From: an uncultured Nitrososphaerota archaeon
GTDB lineage: Archaea > Thermoproteota > Nitrososphaeria > Nitrososphaerales > CADDZS01
Assembly (NCBI GenBank): GCA_963799845.1
Contig: CAWCYI010000004.1
Span: 416,001-480,000 of the forward strand
Length of the DNA stretch: 64,000 bases
Direction of reading: 5' to 3'
The stretch's first letter is position 1. Each line of letters opens with the position of its first letter. A program made the translations under genes and the position numbers. The notes beneath the pieces were generated by a model. It was not told the DNA's origin, searched no databases, and saw only the letters and a program-made list of their open reading frames with translations. Of the stretch, positions 42,516 to 50,054 are shown one piece after another.

Positions 42516-44315
42516 CTAAGCTACCTCTTTGCTCTTTGGAATCTGATTGAGCGAACCAATTCTTGAGCTGGGTGGAGAAACTCCTGCCAGTGCCCCAGAA
42601 CCAAGCTCTGTCGCGTTTTCAACATCGGCCGCATGCACCATCGGGGCAGGGACTAGCATAGGCATTGCCTCTTCAAGAGTTGCGGGAGTTACGACCGGCT
42701 TTAGCAGCGTGGGACCGGTCAATGTCTTCAAAAGATTCCATATGAAAGGAATCTGTGCCGCAGCCACGACAATGGCGAAAAAGAATGCAATGTCAAGGTA
42801 TAGCTGGTAATTCAACGTAATAGTGAATGGTAGTAACGGGTTGATTGGCGCAAACTGTCTCCTCGCTACTCCCAGATATCCCATCGCCGTGAAAATAAAG
42901 GCCAGACCAAATCCTCCTACGACACTACCCCAGAAGTGAATTTCCCCAAGTGTCTTGCTGTACCATTGCTTCGAAGAAATTTCGGGTAGGATCCAGTAAA
43001 GAACTCCGAAGCCAGCAAAGACTATACCATCTAGACCATTAAAGTGAAAGTGACCCACCACGGCATAGGTGTTGTGAAGGTAAACGTCAAGCGAAGCATT
43101 TCCTTGCTCCACACCCCCGATCCCGCCAATAATCCATCCGAATATGCTTGCCAGCAGGAATTTCGCAGTTAGGTTCCACTCGTACTTGGATCTCCAGATC
43201 AGGGCAAGTAAAGTAAAAACAGAAATTCCGGATGCAATCCCGATAACCATTGACATGTTCTGGGACATGAACTGCAACGCAAACGGCTGAGATGTATCCA
43301 TGAATAAGTGGTGGCTGTAAACTCCCACTCCCGTAATCAAGAGAAGAGGCCATGGTGCTTTCGCCCATCTGCTACTCGAGAAGTTTCTCTTGGAGAGAAT
43401 TGGAATCAGAGTGTAGTACATTCCAATCAGAGGGAAGAACGCATAGTAGACAATTGGGTGGTAGTTTATCCAAAGAAAGTTCTTCGCAACCAGGTTGTTG
43501 AGGAATGTTGGATTGTTCAGCGACTCCCACGCGCCGTCAGCCAGTAAAGTTAGGAAAGGCGGCGCGGATACGATCATGTCGATTGTAGTTACGACGCAAG
43601 CTATGATTGCAGGCGGATAACTGAAAATCCTGGATCGAACCGCTTTTGGCATGTAAGCGTCAAAGCCGATTGATCCGGCAAACTTTGCGGACATTGAATG
43701 ATTGAATCCAGGCTTCAGGTTGTATTCGTCCTGATACTTGTTGGAGAACACTGTTCCCAAAACGATGTACGTGAAAACGAAAAGAGACACATTCGTGATC
43801 ATCATTCCGGCGAAAAATAGTAAATCTTGGGCGAGTCCCCAAGGAGCAGTCCCCGCCGGGCCGCCGTGGAATGGTAACGGGAACAGGAAATACCATCCAG
43901 GGCCGAAACCGAGAGCGGTTGAAAGCCAGACGAGATAAAACCCGATCGTAAATAGGAAAAATACAACAGGGAGAAGCTTCTCGCCGTACAGTTTTCGTTT
44001 CATATACTTCGGAATGGCGTATGCAATCAGGCCGTACGTAAAGGGAAATTGCCAACCGACGAACATTCCCAGCCCGTGAGCCGTCAGCAGCTGGCCGAAC
44101 ACCTGTGGGGTGCCGAGAGGGCCAATCGAAGATGCGGCGCCTGCTTGATCAGTCCTCATGAAAAGGGCGAGCGTGCCTGCAATGATGAAGTTTAGAAATG
44201 AAAGATAGAGCAGACGCCGCGACCACTTTCGCGTGAAGGGAGTGAGCGCTTCATTGACCGTACTTTCAGGCTTTGCAATAGTTTGAGTTGATGGACTTGT
44301 GCTCAAATTTTTCAC
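42516..44315 (-). CDS. coxA: heme-copper oxidase subunit I, B-family-like
   Basis: LTAHG, HPIVY, SHHLF, HNTYAVVGHFH and GVARR. Confidence 0.92.
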   Translation of the reverse strand: MKNLSTSPSTQTIAKPESTVNEALTPFTRKWSRRLLYLSFLNFIIAGTLALFMRTDQAGAASSIGPLGTPQVFGQLLTAHGLGMFVGWQFPFTYGLIAYAIPKYMKRKLYGEKLLPVVFFLFTIGFYLVWLSTALGFGPGWYFLFPLPFHGGPAGTAPWGLAQDLLFFAGMMITNVSLFVFTYIVLGTVFSNKYQDEYNLKPGFNHSMSAKFAGSIGFDAYMPKAVRSRIFSYPPAIIACVVTTIDMIVSAPPFLTLLADGAWESLNNPTFLNNLVAKNFLWINYHPIVYYAFFPLIGMYYTLIPILSKRNFSSSRWAKAPWPLLLITGVGVYSHHLFMDTSQPFALQFMSQNMSMVIGIASGISVFTLLALIWRSKYEWNLTAKFLLASIFGWIIGGIGGVEQGNASLDVYLHNTYAVVGHFHFNGLDGIVFAGFGVLYWILPEISSKQWYSKTLGEIHFWGSVVGGFGLAFIFTAMGYLGVARRQFAPINPLLPFTITLNYQLYLDIAFFFAIVVAAAQIPFIWNLLKTLTGPTLLKPVVTPATLEEAMPMLVPAPMVHAADVENATELGSGALAGVSPPSSRIGSLNQIPKSKEVA

Positions 44316-44909
44316 CTATGATGAAGTAACATTGAACTGGCTTATCATATCCGTATGACCATACCCGCAGAACTCAAGACAGCGTATGTAATAGATTCCC
44401 GGACTCGTGAATTGGTACATTATGTTATTGTAATATTGCGGCATTACCTGTACTTGAAAAATTATTGCTCCTGCTGCATCGTAGACTCCGAAACCGTGTG
44501 TAACGTCTAAACTGGTCACGTTAAAGAAAACGGTACTTCCAACCGGTATGGGGAAGTTAGGGACGCAAGGAGATCCCCACCTGGGAGACGGCGTTAGACA
44601 CCAGGCAAACTGCTGTGCCTGGACATCGACGATCATGTTAGGTTTGATATTGCTGTGTCTATAAGGATACGGCAGGTAAGCCAGAGTTGAAACGCTAAAC
44701 ACAATGAAGATTATCACAATGATAACGACCCAGTGCTTTTCGTATTTTGCCAGCGCGTGGCTATCGCTCTCCTCGGGATGCCTCGTTGAGTAAATCACTG
44801 CGATAATGGCGACCGCGGCAATCAGCGTGCCCATAACAAAGATTATCGTTAGATAGGTAATGTTCATGCCCACGCTTGCGGGGAATATCCCAAGAGTGGC
44901 GACGCTCAA
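44316..44909 (-). CDS. coxB: heme-copper oxidase subunit II (CuA)
   Basis: Two TMs, QQFAW, DVTHGF and CLEFCGYGHTDM. Confidence 0.93.
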   Translation of the reverse strand: MSVATLGIFPASVGMNITYLTIIFVMGTLIAAVAIIAVIYSTRHPEESDSHALAKYEKHWVVIIVIIFIVFSVSTLAYLPYPYRHSNIKPNMIVDVQAQQFAWCLTPSPRWGSPCVPNFPIPVGSTVFFNVTSLDVTHGFGVYDAAGAIIFQVQVMPQYYNNIMYQFTSPGIYYIRCLEFCGYGHTDMISQFNVTSS

Positions 44910-45130
44910 AGCTGCATGCCCCTCTCAACTTACGCACTATAAATGTTATGTTGGGAAACCATTTTGGAAAAAATTATTCAAAAATAGTCTCGCCAAGAAA
45001 CAATTCGTGCTGATTTACAGTCCACTATTTGCGTCAGATTTTCTGGAGTAGATTGATTCTATGTTTCAATGATTTCTCATGTTCCAAATACGAGGCTCCT
45101 CGGATGTGTTTTTGATGGAACCATCAGCTG

Positions 45131-45598
45131 CTAACTTTGAGCTGCTAAAACGATCACGGTTCCTTTCATCCATGTGTGGTATGAGCAGTGGTAGTTGTAC
45201 GTGCCCGGAGAGGAAAAAACAAAGGTGTAGTTTGAACCTGGCGAAATGTTGCCTGAATCAAACACGTTAGTGTTTGAAGTCGCGGTATGAAATGCATAAT
45301 CCTCATTTGTCCAAGTTACACTGTTGTTCACGCCTATCTCGACTGTAATGGTGGACGGAGAGAAACCTTCGGAAGAATTTGTTCCCGCGCCGTTTTGGAT
45401 TACGACTGTCACCGTCTTTCCCGTGAAGAGAACACTGGACGTCGTACTGATTGACGCGGCAGATTCTCTGATAGATTGGGTCAGCCCGGCAGTAAGAGAA
45501 ACTCCGACGAGGACAACAAGCAGCACTCCGATCAATGTCCGCCCTACTTGGGAAGAAGATCTGGAATCCTCTTGAGAATTATTTCCCAAAAATCTCAC
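45131..45598 (-). CDS. membrane-anchored plastocyanin/azurin-family blue copper protein
   Basis: N-terminal TM, then FHTATS...YHCSYHTWMKG. Confidence 0.9.
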   Translation of the reverse strand: MRFLGNNSQEDSRSSSQVGRTLIGVLLVVLVGVSLTAGLTQSIRESAASISTTSSVLFTGKTVTVVIQNGAGTNSSEGFSPSTITVEIGVNNSVTWTNEDYAFHTATSNTNVFDSGNISPGSNYTFVFSSPGTYNYHCSYHTWMKGTVIVLAAQS

Positions 45599-45607
45599 CG
45601 TTTTCCT

Positions 45608-46543
45608 TCAGGAAGTAGAGTTCAGCCCACAGGAAGAAGCGCCGTCACCGTCGCAGTAAGCATTCGGGAGAACTATGAGATAGCCAAACATTCCGTTGGC
45701 GACGTGGTATATACACGTGAATTCGAAGACTCCCGCGTAGCTTGCCTGGAAGGCGGCGATCCCCCAAACTTCAGAGCTCGACGCGTTTGACGGAATGCTG
45801 ACGCCACTAAGATTGGCACTGCCTCCAAAGTAAACCTCGTCGGAAACTGGGATTGTGATCGGGTGCGGGTTTGAGGCGTTGCCCAGATCCGAGTGCGGGT
45901 TGGCGTTCTGTTCGGAAGCGTAATCGGAAGCTCCAAGAGCTGATAGGGAGCTTGGAGAGAGTAGACTAGAGCCAGAAACGCAGTATGATGTGGAGATCCC
46001 TGAAGATTCTTGAGCATAATTTCCATTGATGCAGCTGCTGTTAAACGTGCTTCCACTTTGCAAGAAATCAGCTGAGCCCGCGACAGTATTGTTAATCTGA
46101 AAATCGTAGGGCCCCGACGTAAGAGTGAATGTGTGCGCATCGGTGTCATTCTGAATGAACAGTATCTGCACGATGTCGCCCTGAACTACCGTGATTGTGC
46201 TGGGACAGAATCTATCCTCTCCGGAATTGTCCGTGTTGCACCAATCTATCTTTATTGGCAAAACGGTTGGTTTCTGATTAATTGAAGCGGCTGGCGGCCC
46301 TGCTTGAGTGGTCGTTGTGGTACTCGCAGAGTGAGTAACGGCCGCTATATTGTAAACAATGACTGTGGCTCCAACCCCCAGCACGAAACTAATTACTATC
46401 AGCGCGAGGGCGGCGAGAGTTGTAATCCCCGTCCTTCTTCCTCGGCTCTTACGAATGTGGTAAGAAAGAGGTACATTAGTTCGCAAAGCCCTGAAGTTAG
46501 ATGAATGGGACATAAACATTGTCGGGGATATGAAATACGTCAA
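45608..46543 (-). CDS. membrane-anchored cupredoxin with large internal insertion
   Basis: TM, PSTITVVQGDIV, AHTFTL, about 120 inserted residues, then FEFTCIYHVANGMFG. Confidence 0.8.
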   Translation of the reverse strand: MTYFISPTMFMSHSSNFRALRTNVPLSYHIRKSRGRRTGITTLAALALIVISFVLGVGATVIVYNIAAVTHSASTTTTTQAGPPAASINQKPTVLPIKIDWCNTDNSGEDRFCPSTITVVQGDIVQILFIQNDTDAHTFTLTSGPYDFQINNTVAGSADFLQSGSTFNSSCINGNYAQESSGISTSYCVSGSSLLSPSSLSALGASDYASEQNANPHSDLGNASNPHPITIPVSDEVYFGGSANLSGVSIPSNASSSEVWGIAAFQASYAGVFEFTCIYHVANGMFGYLIVLPNAYCDGDGASSCGLNSTS

Positions 46544-46667
46544 ATTTTAAAGGATTTTGTTTTACACCTTTAGCGAGAAGACAATCTCTATGTCACAGTT
46601 TTTCGTTTACGATATTGCCACTGTTTTCGAGAATTTTCTCAGTGATAAAAAATCAAGAATCGCGATA

Positions 46668-46677
46668 CTTATTTATG
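46668..46677 (+). promoter_or_regulatory. TATA-like box of the tRNA-Tyr gene
   Basis: CTTATTTATG about 25-30 nt upstream of the mature tRNA start. Confidence 0.5.
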
Positions 46678-46700
46678 CGCTGAACCGAGGTTCCTCTTTA

Positions 46701-46900
46701 CCCGCGGTAGCTCAGCTTGGTAGAGCTTCCGACCTCGGATAATCAAAAGTCCCGGGGGGAGACGCTGTAGAGATCCTCGGCTCCTCAAAGAATCGTAGAG
46801 GCGCTGATCCCAACCCAGCCTATCAAGCCTACAGAAACCGGAGTGTCGTCGGTTCAAAAAGCGTGGTCAGTGAACGCGCCTGAAAGTCCGACCCGCGGGA
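46701..46900 (+). tRNA. tRNA-Tyr(GUA) with three introns (30/31: 46732-46763; 37/38: 46771-46836; 59/60: 46859-46886)
   Basis: Acceptor CCCGCGG/CCGCGGG+A, D arm GCTC..GAGC, spliced anticodon arm TCCGG-CTGTAGA-CCGGA, T arm GTCGG-TTCAAAT-CCGAC; 74 nt after splicing; BHB-type central helices at each junction. Confidence 0.9.
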
Positions 46901-46901
46901 C

Positions 46902-46908
46902 TTTTTTT
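46902..46908 (+). terminator. oligo-T terminator after the tRNA
   Basis: T7 tract immediately 3' of the discriminator base. Confidence 0.6.
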
Positions 46909-46917
46909 CCCTGATTG

Positions 46918-48301
46918 CTATTGGACTATGATCTCTACGACTTTAGAGACTGCGAGGGTGTTAGTACCGAGTTGTCAATGTCACAAAGTAGACCCCAGAC
47001 ATTGATCCATTATTCTGAATCTCCACTACCGAATTGAAGCTTCCCGATCCTTGCTGAGGCGCAAATGTGAAAGTGAAGTTGCCCGTGAAATTGCCAACGT
47101 AACCCTTTAGATAAACGAGCGATGAGTTACTGGTTACCGATAGCCCCAGATTGATCTTACTTCCGTTCGGAATCGATACTGGGCTAGAATAATTGATCAA
47201 TTGCACCTTAACGTCCAGTGCTTTCGTCGTATTCACTGTTCCTACTTTTCCTGAAAATAGCTCTGTATACCATGGTTCGCCACTGGGTGACAAGGTACTG
47301 GTCAACATGTAACTTATGTTTCCGGCGTCCCTAATTTCCGTAGGGATAAAGTATTCAATCAAACTATTACTGACAGGGTCGAATTCTCCCATCGCGTTCC
47401 CATAGTGCTCGTTGAACCACACATTGCCGTTTTGGTCAACCCAACAAAAATAGGGAAGTGATTCGATCAGAGAATTGTTCGAAGTCGAAATCGTCTTGAA
47501 GTAGTGCGTAGTTGGATTGAACTCCGAAATAAAACTTGGGCCGTGTTGAGTCATCCATATGTTCCCGAGGGAGTCGACCGCGATCCCTACTGGTGTTGTG
47601 ATCAAACCTGTCAAGTTTTCAATTGTAAAACTGCCCTGATAGTAAGATCCGATCGAATCGGTCCCTGGGAGGGTGAACCAGACCTTCCCCGTCGAATCGG
47701 CCGTGATGCCTGATGGCTCAGGATCTCCTTTGGATGGCACTAATAGTTCATACATGGAACCGTTTGCAGCAATCTCTCCTATTTTGTTTCCTTCAAGCTC
47801 GGCAAACCAGACGTTATGATTCGTATCAATTGTTATTCCAAAAGGAAAAGCGTCTGGTGTGACCAGTTTGTGCTGCTCGAATCGATGATTATTCATATTG
47901 AAACTCCAGATCGAATTCGAAGATTCTTCAGTAAACCAGATCAAACCCAAAGAATTATCCACAGACATCCCCCAGGTCATCATACTTCCACTCTTTATTC
48001 CAGGCACACGGTATTCGTGAATTGTTCCGTTTGCCGGGATTAATTCAGCGACTGACGAATCGTTCTCCAATGTGAACCATATGTAGCCGGCAGAATCGAC
48101 GGTTATTGCGTTTGGTGAGGTTGAGGAAGATTGGGTAGGGTACTCTATGGTGTAAGCGCCTACCTGCGGTTTGGAGACGTATAGGTAACTCACCACAGTA
48201 GCAGGTTCTAGAAAATAGTACGAAAGCCCTACGACTAAAAGTGCGATAATCAGAACTCCCAGCGGGATTAGAAACCACTTCCGTCTTTTCTGTGTACTCA
48301 A
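46918..48301 (-). CDS. membrane-anchored Vgb-lyase-like beta-propeller protein with C-terminal beta-rich domain (probable frameshift near 46965)
   Basis: N-terminal TM; repeated P.GI..D..G.(I/V)WF.E blades; the alternative frame ends TLAVSKVVEIIVQ* at 46918. Confidence 0.8.
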
Positions 48302-48386
48302 GCGTCACACTTTATCTTAGTTGGCTGAATGTTTTGCAGCGGAACGACAGTTCGAATCCCATATTTTCCAAACCGTCGAGACGCCG

Positions 48387-50054
48387 TCACTTGCGATTCG
48401 CTCGCCTACTCGTCGGTCTTCTCCTTGAAACAAGTACTAACGAACTTACAACAACCGCCGCTAGAGCCCCACCTATCGCCGCAGCGTCAATCAACAGGGA
48501 TGGGTGGTCAGGAGAGCTTTCAACTTTCAGAGACAGGATTGTGGAATAGATGTCTCCAGTCAAGTTTGATTTTCCACTGATGGTAAGATAGTAAATCCCG
48601 GGTAAAAGACCGTTTGTCGAGATTGAAAGATTTGATACAGCTTTACCTGAAGAACTGAAGTTCAATGAAGGCGGATTAAACACGGCCGATGCATTCTGCA
48701 GATTTCCGGTGCCCGAAATTCCCGAAATATCAAGACCGATATTCTGGTTCGAGTCCGCAGAGATCATTATCGGAACGGAGATATTTCCACCGCTGGCTTC
48801 AAGCTCGGAAGTAGAGTTGCCTGTCGAAAGAATAACCGATTCATTGGAATTTGCTGGTACAAGTTCTCCAATGTTATTTCCGTCGAATTCGGTAAACCAA
48901 ACGGTTGAGTTTTCCCCGAGTGCAAGGTATAGAGTGCCGGCAATCTGGGAGCCGCAACACGGAATGGGATACTCGATCATGCTTTTTGTCGAGGGATTGA
49001 ACTCCGCAATCTTGTTACCATAATGCTCTGCGATCCAGACATCGCCATTGTTGTCTATCGCGATCCCATTCGGCAACGAGGTAGCGTAATTGGGGTTATG
49101 AGTCCGCGAAGTCCAGAATTTGTCGAGGACTTTGGAACCAATATTGTACTCGTCAAAAGAACTTACGATGTGCTCAGTGATCCAGAGTGTCTTACCATCG
49201 GGGCTGATTGCGAGCTGGCTCGGCGTCTGGAGGCTTGAGACTATCGTTTGCGCTTCGTTGTTGACTGATAGGTCAGTGGGAGGTGGGCTATTCACGATTG
49301 TAGTGAGATAACTGCTGTTCGTCGGAGCAAATTCCTGGATGCCTTTACTTGTGCCGGGTTGAAGCTCGGATGTAGTTACATATCCGATCATGTTAGAATC
49401 GGCTGCTGTAAACCAAAAGTTTCCGCTAGAATCAAACGCTATGTCAAGAGGAGCAGAGTAAAAGACTGGAAGGTCAAACGACAAAAATGTCGAATTCGTC
49501 GGAAAGAATTCGTCTATCTGATTCGAGAATTCGCACGTAAGCCAGATTGAGGACTTTGAAGCAGCGACCCCGATCGGGCCGCAGGAAAGATTTCCAGGAG
49601 CTGTTGGAATTTTGAATTCGCTTATTGTCCCCGAGACCGAGTTCAGCTCTCCCAGATTCTCTCCATTCAGCTCGGTAAACCACGGGTTTCCAGATCCGTC
49701 TACTGTGATCTGCTCGAGCAACGAATTAGGAGTAGGCACGTTAAACTCTTTGAAGGTTTTAGATTGGGGATTGAACATGCCGATCTGGTTTGATCCCGCC
49801 TCGGCAACCCAGACTCTTCCGGAAGCATCGACTGAAATGCCCCAAGGCTGAGAGGAATTTTTTGGTAGCGGGAACTGCACTATCCTGTAATTCTGCATCC
49901 CAAATGTTTGCGAGCTTGCAGTGACCATCAGGGATACCACACTAGGAGAAAAAAGAATTATCGTTGCCACGGAGACAACTATTATCGCTAGGACAAAGGT
50001 CGGGAGAATCCTGTCACTCTGAATTCTCAAATCCGGATAGTTTCCAAATCGCAT
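48387..50054 (-). CDS. Vgb-lyase-like beta-propeller surface protein with C-terminal TM anchor
   Basis: Repeated PWGISVD/PNGIAID..VW.AE blades, N-terminal signal, C-terminal TM plus basic tail. Confidence 0.85.
   Translation of the reverse strand: MRFGNYPDLRIQSDRILPTFVLAIIVVSVATIILFSPSVVSLMVTASSQTFGMQNYRIVQFPLPKNSSQPWGISVDASGRVWVAEAGSNQIGMFNPQSKTFKEFNVPTPNSLLEQITVDGSGNPWFTELNGENLGELNSVSGTISEFKIPTAPGNLSCGPIGVAASKSSIWLTCEFSNQIDEFFPTNSTFLSFDLPVFYSAPLDIAFDSSGNFWFTAADSNMIGYVTTSELQPGTSKGIQEFAPTNSSYLTTIVNSPPPTDLSVNNEAQTIVSSLQTPSQLAISPDGKTLWITEHIVSSFDEYNIGSKVLDKFWTSRTHNPNYATSLPNGIAIDNNGDVWIAEHYGNKIAEFNPSTKSMIEYPIPCCGSQIAGTLYLALGENSTVWFTEFDGNNIGELVPANSNESVILSTGNSTSELEASGGNISVPIMISADSNQNIGLDISGISGTGNLQNASAVFNPPSLNFSSSGKAVSNLSISTNGLLPGIYYLTISGKSNLTGDIYSTILSLKVESSPDHPSLLIDAAAIGGALAAVVVSSLVLVSRRRPTSRRANRK

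What the first reader, a model, noticed from the sequence alone, without database searches (positions are those of the whole stretch)
46701..46900. tRNA-Tyr(GUA) interrupted by three introns, probably spliced in a fixed order
Seen: the 200-nt gene gives a clean 74-nt tRNA only after removing 32 nt (30/31), 66 nt (37/38) and 28 nt (59/60). Intron 1 has a full BHB: central helix CTTC/GGAG, bulges CGA and ACG, flanking helices AG/CT and CCTCGG/CCGGGG. Intron 3 has central helix TTCA/TGAA with bulges AAA and AGT. Established: triple-intron tRNAs are rare and best known from Thermoproteales, and need an endonuclease that accepts non-canonical sites. Inference: the intron-1 BHB uses D-stem and anticodon-loop bases, so the 37/38 motif can only fold after intron 1 is removed. 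Default annotation may miss this gene.
Basis: partly seen in the sequence, partly recalled or inferred. Interest (0 to 1): 0.75.

Follow-up and report, generated by a model that had tools for sequence, protein, structure and literature searches.

The report
Three-intron tyrosine tRNA gene, thaumarchaeal
This is a real tyrosine tRNA gene of an uncultured soil archaeon, cut into four pieces by three small protein-spliced introns, a known kind of gene that standard finders miss; its middle intron also carries a conserved stretch that pairs with the tRNA's own D-loop.

Summary
Window 46701-46900 (+) is a tRNA-Tyr(GUA) gene. ARAGORN and Rfam both miss the gene.

It is not a rarity of Thermoproteales. 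The organism is a non-marine thaumarchaeon. tRNA-Tyr genes with introns at 30/31, 37/38 and 59/60 recur across its order, class and phylum. The scan has met such genes before. The genome encodes a catalytic and a structural EndA subunit plus RtcB.

The fixed-order idea is plausible but unproven, and "can only fold" is too strong.

One new point emerged. The 3' part of intron 2 (46816-46828) pairs with D-loop bases 15-23 and with G31-G34. This pairing shows compensatory changes across 75 sequences. It excludes the intron-2 splice motif but is compatible with the intron-1 motif. In-silico ensembles favour removal of intron 1 before intron 2. No RNA data were available.

The parts
46661..46680 (+). 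Promoter-like block CGCGATACTTATTTATGCGC. The TATA-like TTATTTAT lies at 46669-46676, 25-32 nt upstream of the gene.
   Evidence: Read from the sequence. The same block (CGCGATAsTTATTTATG) sits at the same distance in family-f1 orthologs L020, L021, L025, L045 and, with changes, in L024, L026, L028, L044. Function as an archaeal BRE/TATA is inferred, not tested.
46701..46731 (+). Exon 1: tRNA positions 1-30 (acceptor 5' strand, D-arm, 26, first 4 nt of the anticodon stem).
   Evidence: It is 94-100% identical in relatives across the class and phylum.
46732..46763 (+). Intron 1 (32 nt, 30/31) with a full hBHBh' motif.
   Evidence: outer flank 2 bp, inner flank 6 bp. The central helix is paired in 28 of 28 aligned sequences that carry this intron and in 16 of 16 in the phylum sample.
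46764..46770 (+). Exon 2: positions 31-37 (G31, anticodon loop C32-G37 with anticodon GUA).
   Evidence: Invariant in alignments A1 and A2.
46771..46836 (+). Intron 2 (66 nt, canonical 37/38). Central helix CTGT/ACAG, both 3-nt bulges, and a 5' hairpin. There is no contiguous inner helix on the 3' side.
   Evidence: The central helix is paired in 48 of 48 distinct sequences.
46816..46828 (+). Conserved antisense segment of intron 2 (CAGC + CTATCAAGC). It forms helix Y with G31-G34 (46764-46767) and helix X with D-loop G15-G23 (46715-46723).
   Evidence: Present in the unconstrained MFE of the 200-nt precursor, with P(X)=0.95 and P(Y)=0.62. Across the alignments X is 97.1% paired and Y 99.5% in A1, and both are 100% in A2, with compensatory changes at two X pairs. 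In DNA contigs of four runs, 46829 reads T instead of C, which would add an A14:U pair.
46837..46858 (+). Exon 3: positions 38-59 (anticodon stem 3' strand, variable loop, T-stem 5' strand, T-loop TTCAAA).
46859..46886 (+). Intron 3 (28 nt, 59/60 in the T-loop) with a BHB whose outer helix is the T-stem.
   Evidence: Present in 10 of 48 distinct sequences of A1, with the central helix 92.5% paired. It recurs in other classes.
46887..46900 (+). Exon 4: positions 60-73 (T60, T-stem and acceptor 3' strands, discriminator A73).
46902..46908 (+). Run of seven T just after the gene, a likely archaeal transcription stop.
   Evidence: T-runs follow the gene in L020, L021 and L026 too. Function is inferred.

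Best explanation
This is the genome's tyrosine tRNA gene, the only one found in the assembly.

Expression and splicing (inferred). It is transcribed from a TATA-like promoter about 30 nt upstream and ends at a T-run. The 200-nt precursor carries three protein-spliced (bulge-helix-bulge) introns. These are cut by the heterotetramer-type (alpha-beta)2 splicing endonuclease and the exons are joined by RtcB.

Age of the introns (shown by comparison). Introns 30/31 and 37/38 are old. 37/38 is in every ortholog examined. 30/31 is in all parsed families of the organism's order except two, and in several other classes. 59/60 is patchy and probably younger or often lost.

Likely order (inferred, about 55%). 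The T-loop intron is cut independently. Intron 1 is cut before intron 2. The reasoning is as follows. The 3' part of intron 2 pairs with D-loop bases 15-23 and with G31-G34 (helices X and Y). This pairing unwinds the D-stem and anticodon stem. It leaves positions 23-30 and intron 1 as a side branch in which the intron-1 core motif can form. It also occupies C32-G34, which the intron-2 central helix needs. Once intron 1 is removed and the exons are ligated, the 5-bp anticodon stem can form and compete with X/Y, which allows the 37/38 motif.
For: Gene and introns:
- Searches give a perfect cloverleaf with anticodon GUA, C1-G72 and A73.
- Exons are 74/74 identical to L020 against 96/126 for intron columns, and the upstream block and T-run are conserved.
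- There is one match in the own genome.
- A DNA contig spans the gene.

Enzymes:
- There are two EndA paralogs, each with N- and C-terminal Pfam domains.
- The 186-aa one aligns best to chains of crenarchaeal EndA structures (3p1z_B, E 2.8e-37; 2cv8_A). It keeps Tyr/His/Lys at the positions that I recall as the catalytic triad, and it keeps the KPR-containing insert.
- The 232-aa one has Ala where the His lies.
- RtcB is present (E 1.1e-172).

Order:
- The MFE of the full precursor contains X and Y.
- In the ensemble for the own gene, the full precursor has P(H2)=0.00 and P(H1)=0.32. After removing intron 1, P(H2)=0.42. After removing only intron 2, P(H1)=0.00 and the D-stem is 0.86.
- Across the 23 intron-1-bearing orthologs folded, P(H2) was at most 0.01 in the full precursor in 23 of 23, and P(H1) was at most 0.03 without intron 2 in 23 of 23 (one row, L022, comes from the unpublished genome G001).

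X/Y is real:
- In A1 (48 distinct sequences) X is 97.1% paired. One pair reads CG 28 / UA 18 / UG 1 and another reads UA 38 / UG 5 / CG 4. Slid controls reach at most 52%.
- In A2 (27 sequences from other classes) X and Y are 100% paired. The same pairs read CG 18 / UA 9 and UA 20 / AU 3 / CG 2 / UG 2.
- Both states of the first pair occur within single families (f1, f26).
- About 47 G.U cells in X would be A.C mismatches on the other strand, so the helix is read on the tRNA-sense RNA.
Against: - No RNA evidence exists. Spliced product, intermediates and circular introns are all unobserved.
- X/Y also occurs in every ortholog that lacks intron 1 (20 of 48 sequences in A1, 11 of 27 in A2). Its primary role therefore cannot be to present intron 1.
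- After in-silico removal of intron 1, P(H2) rose above 0.1 in only 7 of 23 orthologs. X stayed dominant in most of the rest. The nearest-neighbour model alone therefore does not explain how intron 2 ever gets cut.
- With a relaxed flank rule, my solver could remove intron 2 first in L029 and L037. Broad-specificity EndA enzymes cut relaxed motifs (PMC4090602, passages).
- In 4 of 23 orthologs (L028, L038, L044, L045) X scored 0 in my fixed register, because the segment is displaced by insertions.
- Folding was done at 37 C, without proteins or co-transcriptional kinetics.
- The assembly is 86.7% complete, so a second tRNA-Tyr gene cannot be excluded.
Confidence: 0.8

Rival explanations
1. The gene is real, but there is no obligatory order. 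The broad-specificity endonuclease cuts each motif whenever it forms transiently, in any sequence. The intron-2/D-loop pairing serves another purpose, such as keeping the unspliced precursor out of a tRNA-like fold, or exposing U35 for pseudouridylation before splicing.
For: - X/Y is present with or without intron 1.
- The solver removed intron 2 first under a relaxed rule in L029 and L037.
- (alpha-beta)2 enzymes accept hBH and HBh' motifs (PMC4090602, passages).
- In the X/Y fold U35-A36-G37 are unpaired, whereas U35 is paired in the BHB (from the sequence).
- TruD/Pus7 is found in 56 of 61 genomes of the class.
Against: - In-silico ensembles give P at most 0.01 for the intron-2 central helix while intron 1 is present, and P at most 0.03 for the intron-1 helix once intron 2 is gone. 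Both hold in 23 of 23 orthologs.
- No TruD match was found in this genome, which is 86.7% complete.
Confidence: 0.4
2. The locus is a decaying pseudogene or an assembly chimera, not a working gene.
For: - No RNA data exist.
- ARAGORN and Rfam do not recognise the gene.
- The genome is a draft with 4.87% estimated contamination.
Against: - Exons are 74/74 and 73/74 identical to same-genus orthologs while introns diverge and change length.
- All stems of the spliced product are perfect.
- All three BHB cores are intact.
- The promoter block and T-run are conserved.
- A 3404-nt contig of a public run spans 46701-47000.
- No other tRNA-Tyr match exists in the assembly.
Confidence: 0.03
3. The conserved intron-2 segment is a guide or box element (C/D or H/ACA type) acting on other RNAs. 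Its match to the D-loop would then reflect a trans target.
For: - Archaeal tRNA-Trp introns encode C/D guides (cited in PMC4090602, reference list).
- The D-loop sequence AGCYTGGTAG is shared by many tRNAs.
Against: - I could not see C/D or ACA box architecture in the 44-nt versions of the intron.
- An Rfam scan at E up to 10 gave only chance-level snoRNA hits, on the opposite strand.
- The segment covaries with the D-loop of its own gene, including the rare GGCA and GGAA variants.
- Among 13 introns of 10 other roughly parsed tRNA genes, none had a run above 7 bp.
Confidence: 0.05

Closest known systems
Multiple-intron tRNA genes of Thermoproteales (Pyrobaculum, Thermofilum, Caldivirga; Sugahara et al. 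2007/2008, as cited in PMC4033280 and PMC8450103)
   Same: [quoted passage not shown] They are cut by an (alpha-beta)2 endonuclease with broad specificity and are missed by plain tRNA finders.
   Different: This gene lies in a thaumarchaeon (Nitrososphaeria), not in Thermoproteales. The intron positions are shared by orthologs over very large distances, rather than looking like the recent transpositions described for Thermoproteales (PMC4090602, passages).
Thaumarchaeal non-canonical tRNA introns as modelled in tRNAscan-SE 2.0 (PMC8450103)
   Same: Same phylum-level group and same kind of intron. The paper reports 107 non-canonical introns in Thaumarchaeota genomes. It notes that closely spaced introns may need iterative removal before the next BHB can be detected (passages).
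   Different: I could not run tRNAscan-SE, so I do not know whether it calls this gene. In the passages I read, the paper does not describe any pairing between the canonical intron and the D-loop.
[quoted passage not shown] 2013, PMC3728597)
   Same: [quoted passage not shown] RT-PCR of intermediates indicates that the D- and T-arm introns go before the anticodon intron (passages). That is the same direction as proposed here.
   Different: It is a eukaryotic nuclear gene cut by a eukaryotic endonuclease. The order there is supported by experiment, whereas here it rests only on folding and comparison.
Intron-dependent maturation of tRNA-Tyr (Psi35 by Pus7 in eukaryotes and archaea, or by an H/ACA guide in Sulfolobales; PMC2651775)
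   Same: The canonical tRNA-Tyr intron is nearly universal and has a function before splicing.
   Different: No link between Psi35 and the D-loop pairing is shown here. TruD/Pus7 was not found in this assembly.

Membership tests
tRNA-Tyr (archaeal type) | The spliced product folds into a cloverleaf with 7/4/5/5-bp stems and a 7-nt anticodon loop bearing GUA. | tested here: met
   ARAGORN calls tRNA-Tyr(gta) on the 74-nt product, and the MFE is the cloverleaf at -33.6 kcal/mol.
tRNA-Tyr (archaeal type) | C1-G72 pair and discriminator A73. These are identity elements of archaeal/eukaryal TyrRS, recalled from memory and not drawn from any call. | tested here: met
   The gene starts with C at 46701, pairs with G at 46899 and ends with A at 46900.
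tRNA-Tyr (archaeal type) | Expressed, spliced and aminoacylated. | not testable with these tools
   No RNA run was available to examine.
Archaeal BHB (EndA-spliced) intron | A 4-bp central helix flanked by two 3-nt bulges on opposite strands, with cleavage after the second bulge nucleotide. | tested here: met
   All three introns fit: CTTC/GGAG, CTGT/ACAG and TTCA/TGAA. The central helices are 100%, 100% and 92.5% paired across orthologs. The cleavage rule itself is recalled.
Archaeal BHB (EndA-spliced) intron | Outer (h) and inner (h') helices of the strict hBHBh' motif. | tested here: inconclusive
   Intron 1 has h 2 bp and h' 6 bp. Intron 3 has h 5 bp and h' only after an A.C mismatch. Intron 2 has h 1 bp before and 6 bp after removal of intron 1, and h' 1 bp. 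Introns 2 and 3 are therefore relaxed (hBH-like) motifs.
Archaeal BHB (EndA-spliced) intron | A matching endonuclease and ligase are encoded. | tested here: met
   Two EndA paralogs and RtcB.
(alpha-beta)2 heterotetramer-type EndA | One catalytic subunit with the Tyr/His/Lys triad, and one structural paralog lacking it. | tested here: met
   The 186-aa protein keeps Y, H and K in the alignment to 3p1z_B and 2cv8_A. The 232-aa protein has Ala at the His position in the alignment to 1a79_A. The triad positions are recalled from the M. jannaschii enzyme.
(alpha-beta)2 heterotetramer-type EndA | A specific loop in the catalytic subunit that confers broad substrate range (described in PMC5829648 abstract and PMC4033280 passages). 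| tested here: inconclusive
   The segment GKPIGIPKPRQNEFDVPIIL aligns without gaps to the A. pernix segment [20 protein letters not shown]. That this segment is the loop in question is recalled, not checked against the structure papers.
(alpha-beta)2 heterotetramer-type EndA | The two subunits assemble as a heterotetramer. | not tested
   No complex prediction was run.

The most novel reading that the evidence does not exclude
The canonical intron of pre-tRNA-Tyr carries an antisense element (CAGC plus about 10 nt, ending 7 nt before the 3' splice site) that is conserved across Thermoproteota. This element pairs with the tRNA's own D-loop and with G31-G34. The precursor is therefore bistable. 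One fold is a rod-like X/Y form in which the 37/38 splice motif cannot form, positions 23-30 are looped out (with the 30/31 intron where present) and U35-G37 are single-stranded. The other is a cloverleaf-like form in which the 37/38 motif can form. On this reading the intron acts as a built-in switch that times or orders maturation: 30/31 cut first, and perhaps a modification before splicing. It would also explain why the 30/31 intron sits where it does.
Probability: 0.35. Interest if true: 0.75.

Novelty: new member of a known kind. Interest (0 to 1): 0.5.

Why it matters
As a gene, this is one more multi-intron archaeal tRNA. It is useful mainly as a warning for annotation. Without it the genome appears to lack tRNA-Tyr, and in this genome no Rfam tRNA match has the length of an uninterrupted tRNA. 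In two ammonia-oxidiser-type relatives, 17 of 34 and 19 of 32 matches do.

The part that could matter more is the covarying helix between the canonical intron and the D-loop. Why tRNA-Tyr keeps its intron almost everywhere is an old question. A conserved intron element that refolds the whole precursor gives a concrete hypothesis about what the intron does before it is removed, testable by mutation, and about how several introns in one tRNA can be taken out in a set order.

Tried and rejected
RNA evidence. The run search listed no RNA holder. Expression, junctions and circular introns therefore could not be examined. Only DNA contigs were laid.

Genome-wide intron census.
- An acceptor + D-arm + T-arm pattern scan found only 8 clean pairs. 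A looser scan gave mostly false hits.
- BLAST with 54 mature tRNAs from two relatives flagged 50 tRNA-like loci.
- My strict-BHB solver then resolved only 19 of the 46 loci it attempted. Several parses looked doubtful (nested or very long 'introns'). I do not report intron counts from it.

Four- and five-intron relatives. L037 was resolved as a four-intron gene. L027, L038 and L056 were not resolved to a canonical product under the strict rule: L027 and L056 gave none, and L038 gave only a product with an aberrant T-loop.

C/D or H/ACA guide in intron 2. Rejected, see the rival explanations.

X as the missing inner helix of the intron-2 BHB, or as a pseudoknot coexisting with the cloverleaf. 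Rejected on geometry. Only 1 nt links the X strand to the central helix, while its partner lies beyond the whole anticodon stem. This is reasoning, not computation.

Pus7 link. TruD was not found in this genome, which is 86.7% complete, so the result is inconclusive.

Literature. Five full-text searches and passages of seven papers turned up no description of an intron/D-loop pairing in pre-tRNA-Tyr. Sugahara et al. 2007 (PMC1852824) is not held, and supplements were not read. An earlier description could therefore exist.

Full report
**1. What is there**

Window 46701-46900 (+) begins with CCCGCGG and ends with CCGCGGG-A. Joining 46701-46731, 46764-46770, 46837-46858 and 46887-46900 by coordinates gives 74 nt. 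ARAGORN calls this tRNA-Tyr(gta), and its unconstrained minimum-energy fold (-33.6 kcal/mol) is the cloverleaf.

Standard tools do not find the gene:
- ARAGORN finds nothing in the whole window.
- ARAGORN with introns allowed finds nothing on the 300-nt region.
- Rfam finds nothing at gathering score.
- Rfam does not report the tRNA family even at E up to 10 on 46500-47100.

**2. The splice motifs**

I used the rule that I recall for archaeal bulge-helix-bulge sites: a 4-bp central helix, two 3-nt bulges, and a cut after the second bulge base. In what follows, gene index = window position - 46700.

| Intron | Central helix | Bulges | Outer helix | Inner helix |
|---|---|---|---|---|
| 1 (30/31) | C26-C29 / G58-G61 | CGA, ACG | A24 G25 / C65 T66 | CCTCGG / CCGGGG |
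| 2 (37/38) | C65-T68 / A131-G134 | AGA, AAA | the anticodon stem | hardly any contiguous |
| 3 (59/60) | TTCA / TGAA | AAA, AGT | the T-stem | A.C mismatch, then GCGTG / CGCGC |

A script listed every deletion that obeys this rule, removed them iteratively, and asked ARAGORN whether the remainder was a full-length tRNA. It recovered exactly these three introns and the 74-nt product. It also gave three alternative products with non-canonical anticodon or T loops, which I set aside.

**3. Organism and enzymes**

The window is C4:416001-480000 of a 4.6-Mb, 9-contig assembly, 86.7% complete.

The closest named relatives of its catalytic EndA are uncultured Thaumarchaeota/Nitrososphaerales from metagenomes (82-90% identity). 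Nitrosopumilus lies at about 55%. The best-matching record belongs to the 'heterotrophic terrestrial Thaumarchaeota' described in PMC10640624 (passages). The neighbouring genes encode COX1, COX2, cupredoxins and Vgb-lyase-like propellers.

The genome has two EndA paralogs, each with both Pfam domains:
- The 186-aa protein aligns best to chains of crenarchaeal EndA structures (3p1z_B, E 2.8e-37; 2cv8_A; 3ajv_B; 2zyz_B). It keeps Tyr, His and Lys at the positions I recall as the catalytic triad, and it keeps the KPR-containing insert.
- The 232-aa protein has Ala in place of the His.

This is the pattern of the (alpha-beta)2 enzyme, which reviews assign to Thaumarchaeota, Crenarchaeota and Nanoarchaeota and link to non-canonical and multiple introns (PMC4090602, passages). 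RtcB is present.

**4. Relatives**

The 200-nt gene matched:
- 56 of 61 sampled relatives
- 130 of 151 genomes of the class
- 155 of 201 genomes of the phylum

The own genome gave one match.

Parsing the fetched loci and two alignments gave the following. A1 has 49 sequences and A2 has 27 sequences, mostly from other classes.
- The 37/38 intron is in every gene.
- The 30/31 intron is in 28 of 48 distinct sequences of A1 and in 16 of 27 of A2. It always ends ...GGAGAY before GCTGTAG.
- The 59/60 intron is in 10 of 48 sequences of A1. In A2 it is also in L141, L143, L146, L153, L155, L156 and L158.

The exact three-intron layout of the window therefore recurs in other classes (L141, L143, L146, L155, L156).

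Some relatives have a D-loop intron (L033, L034, L046, L047) or a further 53/54 intron. My solver confirmed L037 as a four-intron gene. Earlier notes of this scan report the same kinds of gene (e1-4885709, e1-2109618, e1-3972415).

Within the genus, exons are 74/74 and 73/74 identical, while intron columns are 96/126 and 90/126 identical. This is the signature of a working gene.

**5. The genome as a whole**

- Rfam's tRNA model gives only 12 matches over its cut-off in G000. Eleven are 90-141 nt long and one is a 66-nt partial match. None has the length of an uninterrupted tRNA.
- Two complete genomes of the same order give 34 and 32 matches at E up to 0.001. Of these, 17 and 19 are 70-77 nt.
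- Four genomes of the own family give 7, 23, 12 and 20 matches, mostly long. A genome of another family gives 35.
- BLAST with relatives' mature tRNAs flags about 50 tRNA-like loci in G000.

Interrupted tRNA genes are therefore the rule in this lineage. I could not produce a trustworthy intron census.

**6. A conserved pairing between intron 2 and the D-loop**

BLAST matches in distant genomes covered not only exon 1 but also gene positions 115-158, that is, the last 22 nt of intron 2 plus exon 3.

The conserved intron part reads CAGC + CTAYCARGC(T) + N + ACAG + NN.
- ACAG is the central-helix strand of the 37/38 motif.
- The 9-10 nt before it are complementary to D-loop positions (14)15-23. 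This is helix X, gene index 15-23 with 120-128.
- CAGC is complementary to G31-C32-U33-G34. This is helix Y, index 64-67 with 116-119.

In most parsed genes the anti-D-loop 10-mer ends exactly 7 nt before the 3' splice site.

Pair counts on A1:
- X is 97.1% paired and Y is 99.5% paired.
- One X pair reads CG 28 / UA 18 / UG 1. Another reads UA 38 / UG 5 / CG 4.
- For the whole structure counted in that call, none of 500 shuffles reached the observed covariation score.
- Slid registers reach at most 52% paired.

Pair counts on A2:
- X and Y are both 100% paired.
- The same two pairs read CG 18 / UA 9 and UA 20 / AU 3 / CG 2 / UG 2.

Both states of the first pair occur inside single families (f1: L019-L021 against L024-L026; f26: L049 against L054-L064). 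L021 shows the U.G intermediate. The changes are therefore not one inherited event.

The roughly 47 G.U cells in X would be A.C mismatches on the opposite strand, so the helix belongs to the tRNA-sense RNA.

In public DNA contigs of four runs, 46829 reads T rather than C. This would add an A14:U pair to X.

Among 13 introns of 10 other roughly parsed tRNA genes of this genome, none had more than a 7-bp run against its D-arm.

I found no description of this pairing in five full-text searches and the passages read, nor in earlier notes of the scan. Sugahara et al. 2007 was not available.

**7. What the pairing implies**

X and the 37/38 central helix cannot coexist. Y and that helix use the same bases (C32-G34), and only one nucleotide links the X strand to ACAG, while its partner strand lies beyond the anticodon stem.

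X/Y also replaces the D-stem and the anticodon stem. Positions 23-30 are left as a bulge. The 30/31 intron sits at the edge of that bulge, and its central helix uses positions 25-28.

The unconstrained MFE of the 200-nt precursor (-68.3 kcal/mol) contains X, Y and an intron-1 hairpin as a three-way junction.

Ensemble probabilities for the own gene:

| Precursor | X | Y | H1 (intron 1 central helix) | H2 (intron 2 central helix) | D-stem |
|---|---|---|---|---|---|
| Full | 0.95 | 0.62 | 0.32 | 0.00 | 0.01 |
| Intron 1 removed | 0.21 | 0.34 | - | 0.42 | 0.36 |
| Intron 2 alone removed | - | - | 0.00 | - | 0.86 |

Over the 23 orthologs with intron 1 that I folded (one of them, L022, from the unpublished genome G001):
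- H2 was at most 0.01 in the full precursor in all 23.
- H1 was at most 0.03 without intron 2 in all 23.

This supports 'intron 1 first, then intron 2', with the T-loop intron independent.

Three results count against a simple switch:
- X/Y is just as conserved in genes that have no intron 1.
- After removal of intron 1, H2 exceeded 0.1 in only 7 of 23 orthologs.
- Under a relaxed flank rule, intron 2 could be removed first in L029 and L037.

These are equilibrium calculations at 37 C without proteins.

**8. Comparison with what is known**

- Multi-intron tRNA genes with up to three introns are documented for Thermoproteales (PMC4033280, PMC8450103, passages).
- Thaumarchaeota are known to have many non-canonical introns, and tRNAscan-SE 2.0 has a dedicated model. 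[quoted passage not shown]
- In the red alga C. merolae, RT-PCR of a three-intron tRNA-Ile indicates that the D- and T-arm introns go before the anticodon intron (PMC9602550, passages).

The gene is thus a new member of a known kind, and the idea of ordered removal is not new either. What I could not find described is the covarying intron/D-loop helix.

**9. Verdict**

The gene itself is of moderate interest. The intron-encoded antisense element is a lead worth an experiment.

Claims that touch unpublished genomes: only one row (L022) and the sequence listings (L022, L052). The alignments and pair counts exclude them.

Noticed in passing
window 46816-46829 with 46715-46723 and 46764-46767; loci L019-L077, L138-L166: The 3' part of the canonical tRNA-Tyr intron is complementary to the gene's own D-loop (9-10 bp) and to G31-G34 (4 bp). 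Compensatory changes occur across class- and phylum-level samples. It is present whether or not the 30/31 intron exists.
   Followed up: yes
L037 (G014); also L027, L030 (G051, G030), L038 (G042), L153, L158; L056 (G099): Relatives carry tRNA-Tyr genes with four apparent introns (30/31, 37/38, 53/54, 59/60). L056 may have a fifth just after the acceptor stem. The papers I read give three as the maximum. Only L037 passed my strict solver. An earlier scan note (e1-4885709) reports the same.
   Followed up: partly
G000 whole genome: None of the 12 Rfam tRNA matches in this genome has the length of an uninterrupted tRNA, whereas about half do in two relatives of the same order. About 50 tRNA-like loci exist. 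The own family as a whole shows few and long matches. This lineage may rival Thermoproteales in intron load, but I could not count the introns.
   Followed up: partly
window 46829: Contigs of four public DNA runs read T where the window has C. The T would pair with A14 and lengthen the intron/D-loop helix to 10 bp.
   Followed up: no
G000:C6, minus strand, reverse-complement coordinates 1443169-1443325: An initiator-like tRNA gene (acceptor AGCGGGG/CCCCGCT), 156 nt long, appears to have its T-loop interrupted after TTCAAA. This is the same 59/60 position as intron 3 of the tRNA-Tyr gene.
   Followed up: no
G000 whole genome against the class: No TruD/Pus7 family match in this genome (86.7% complete), although 56 of 61 sampled genomes of the class have one. 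In several families the match is split into two or three pieces within one open frame.
   Followed up: no
window 42516-46543 (-): A COX1-like gene (599 aa), a COX2-like gene (197 aa) and two cupredoxin-domain proteins lie directly upstream of the tRNA gene on the opposite strand. Two Vgb-lyase/NHL-propeller proteins lie downstream (46961-50054).
   Followed up: no
L166 (G247): This tRNA-Tyr gene has an extra 23-nt block inside the 3' strand of the anticodon stem, after ACC in alignment A2. This is a further intron position not seen in the other sequences.
   Followed up: no
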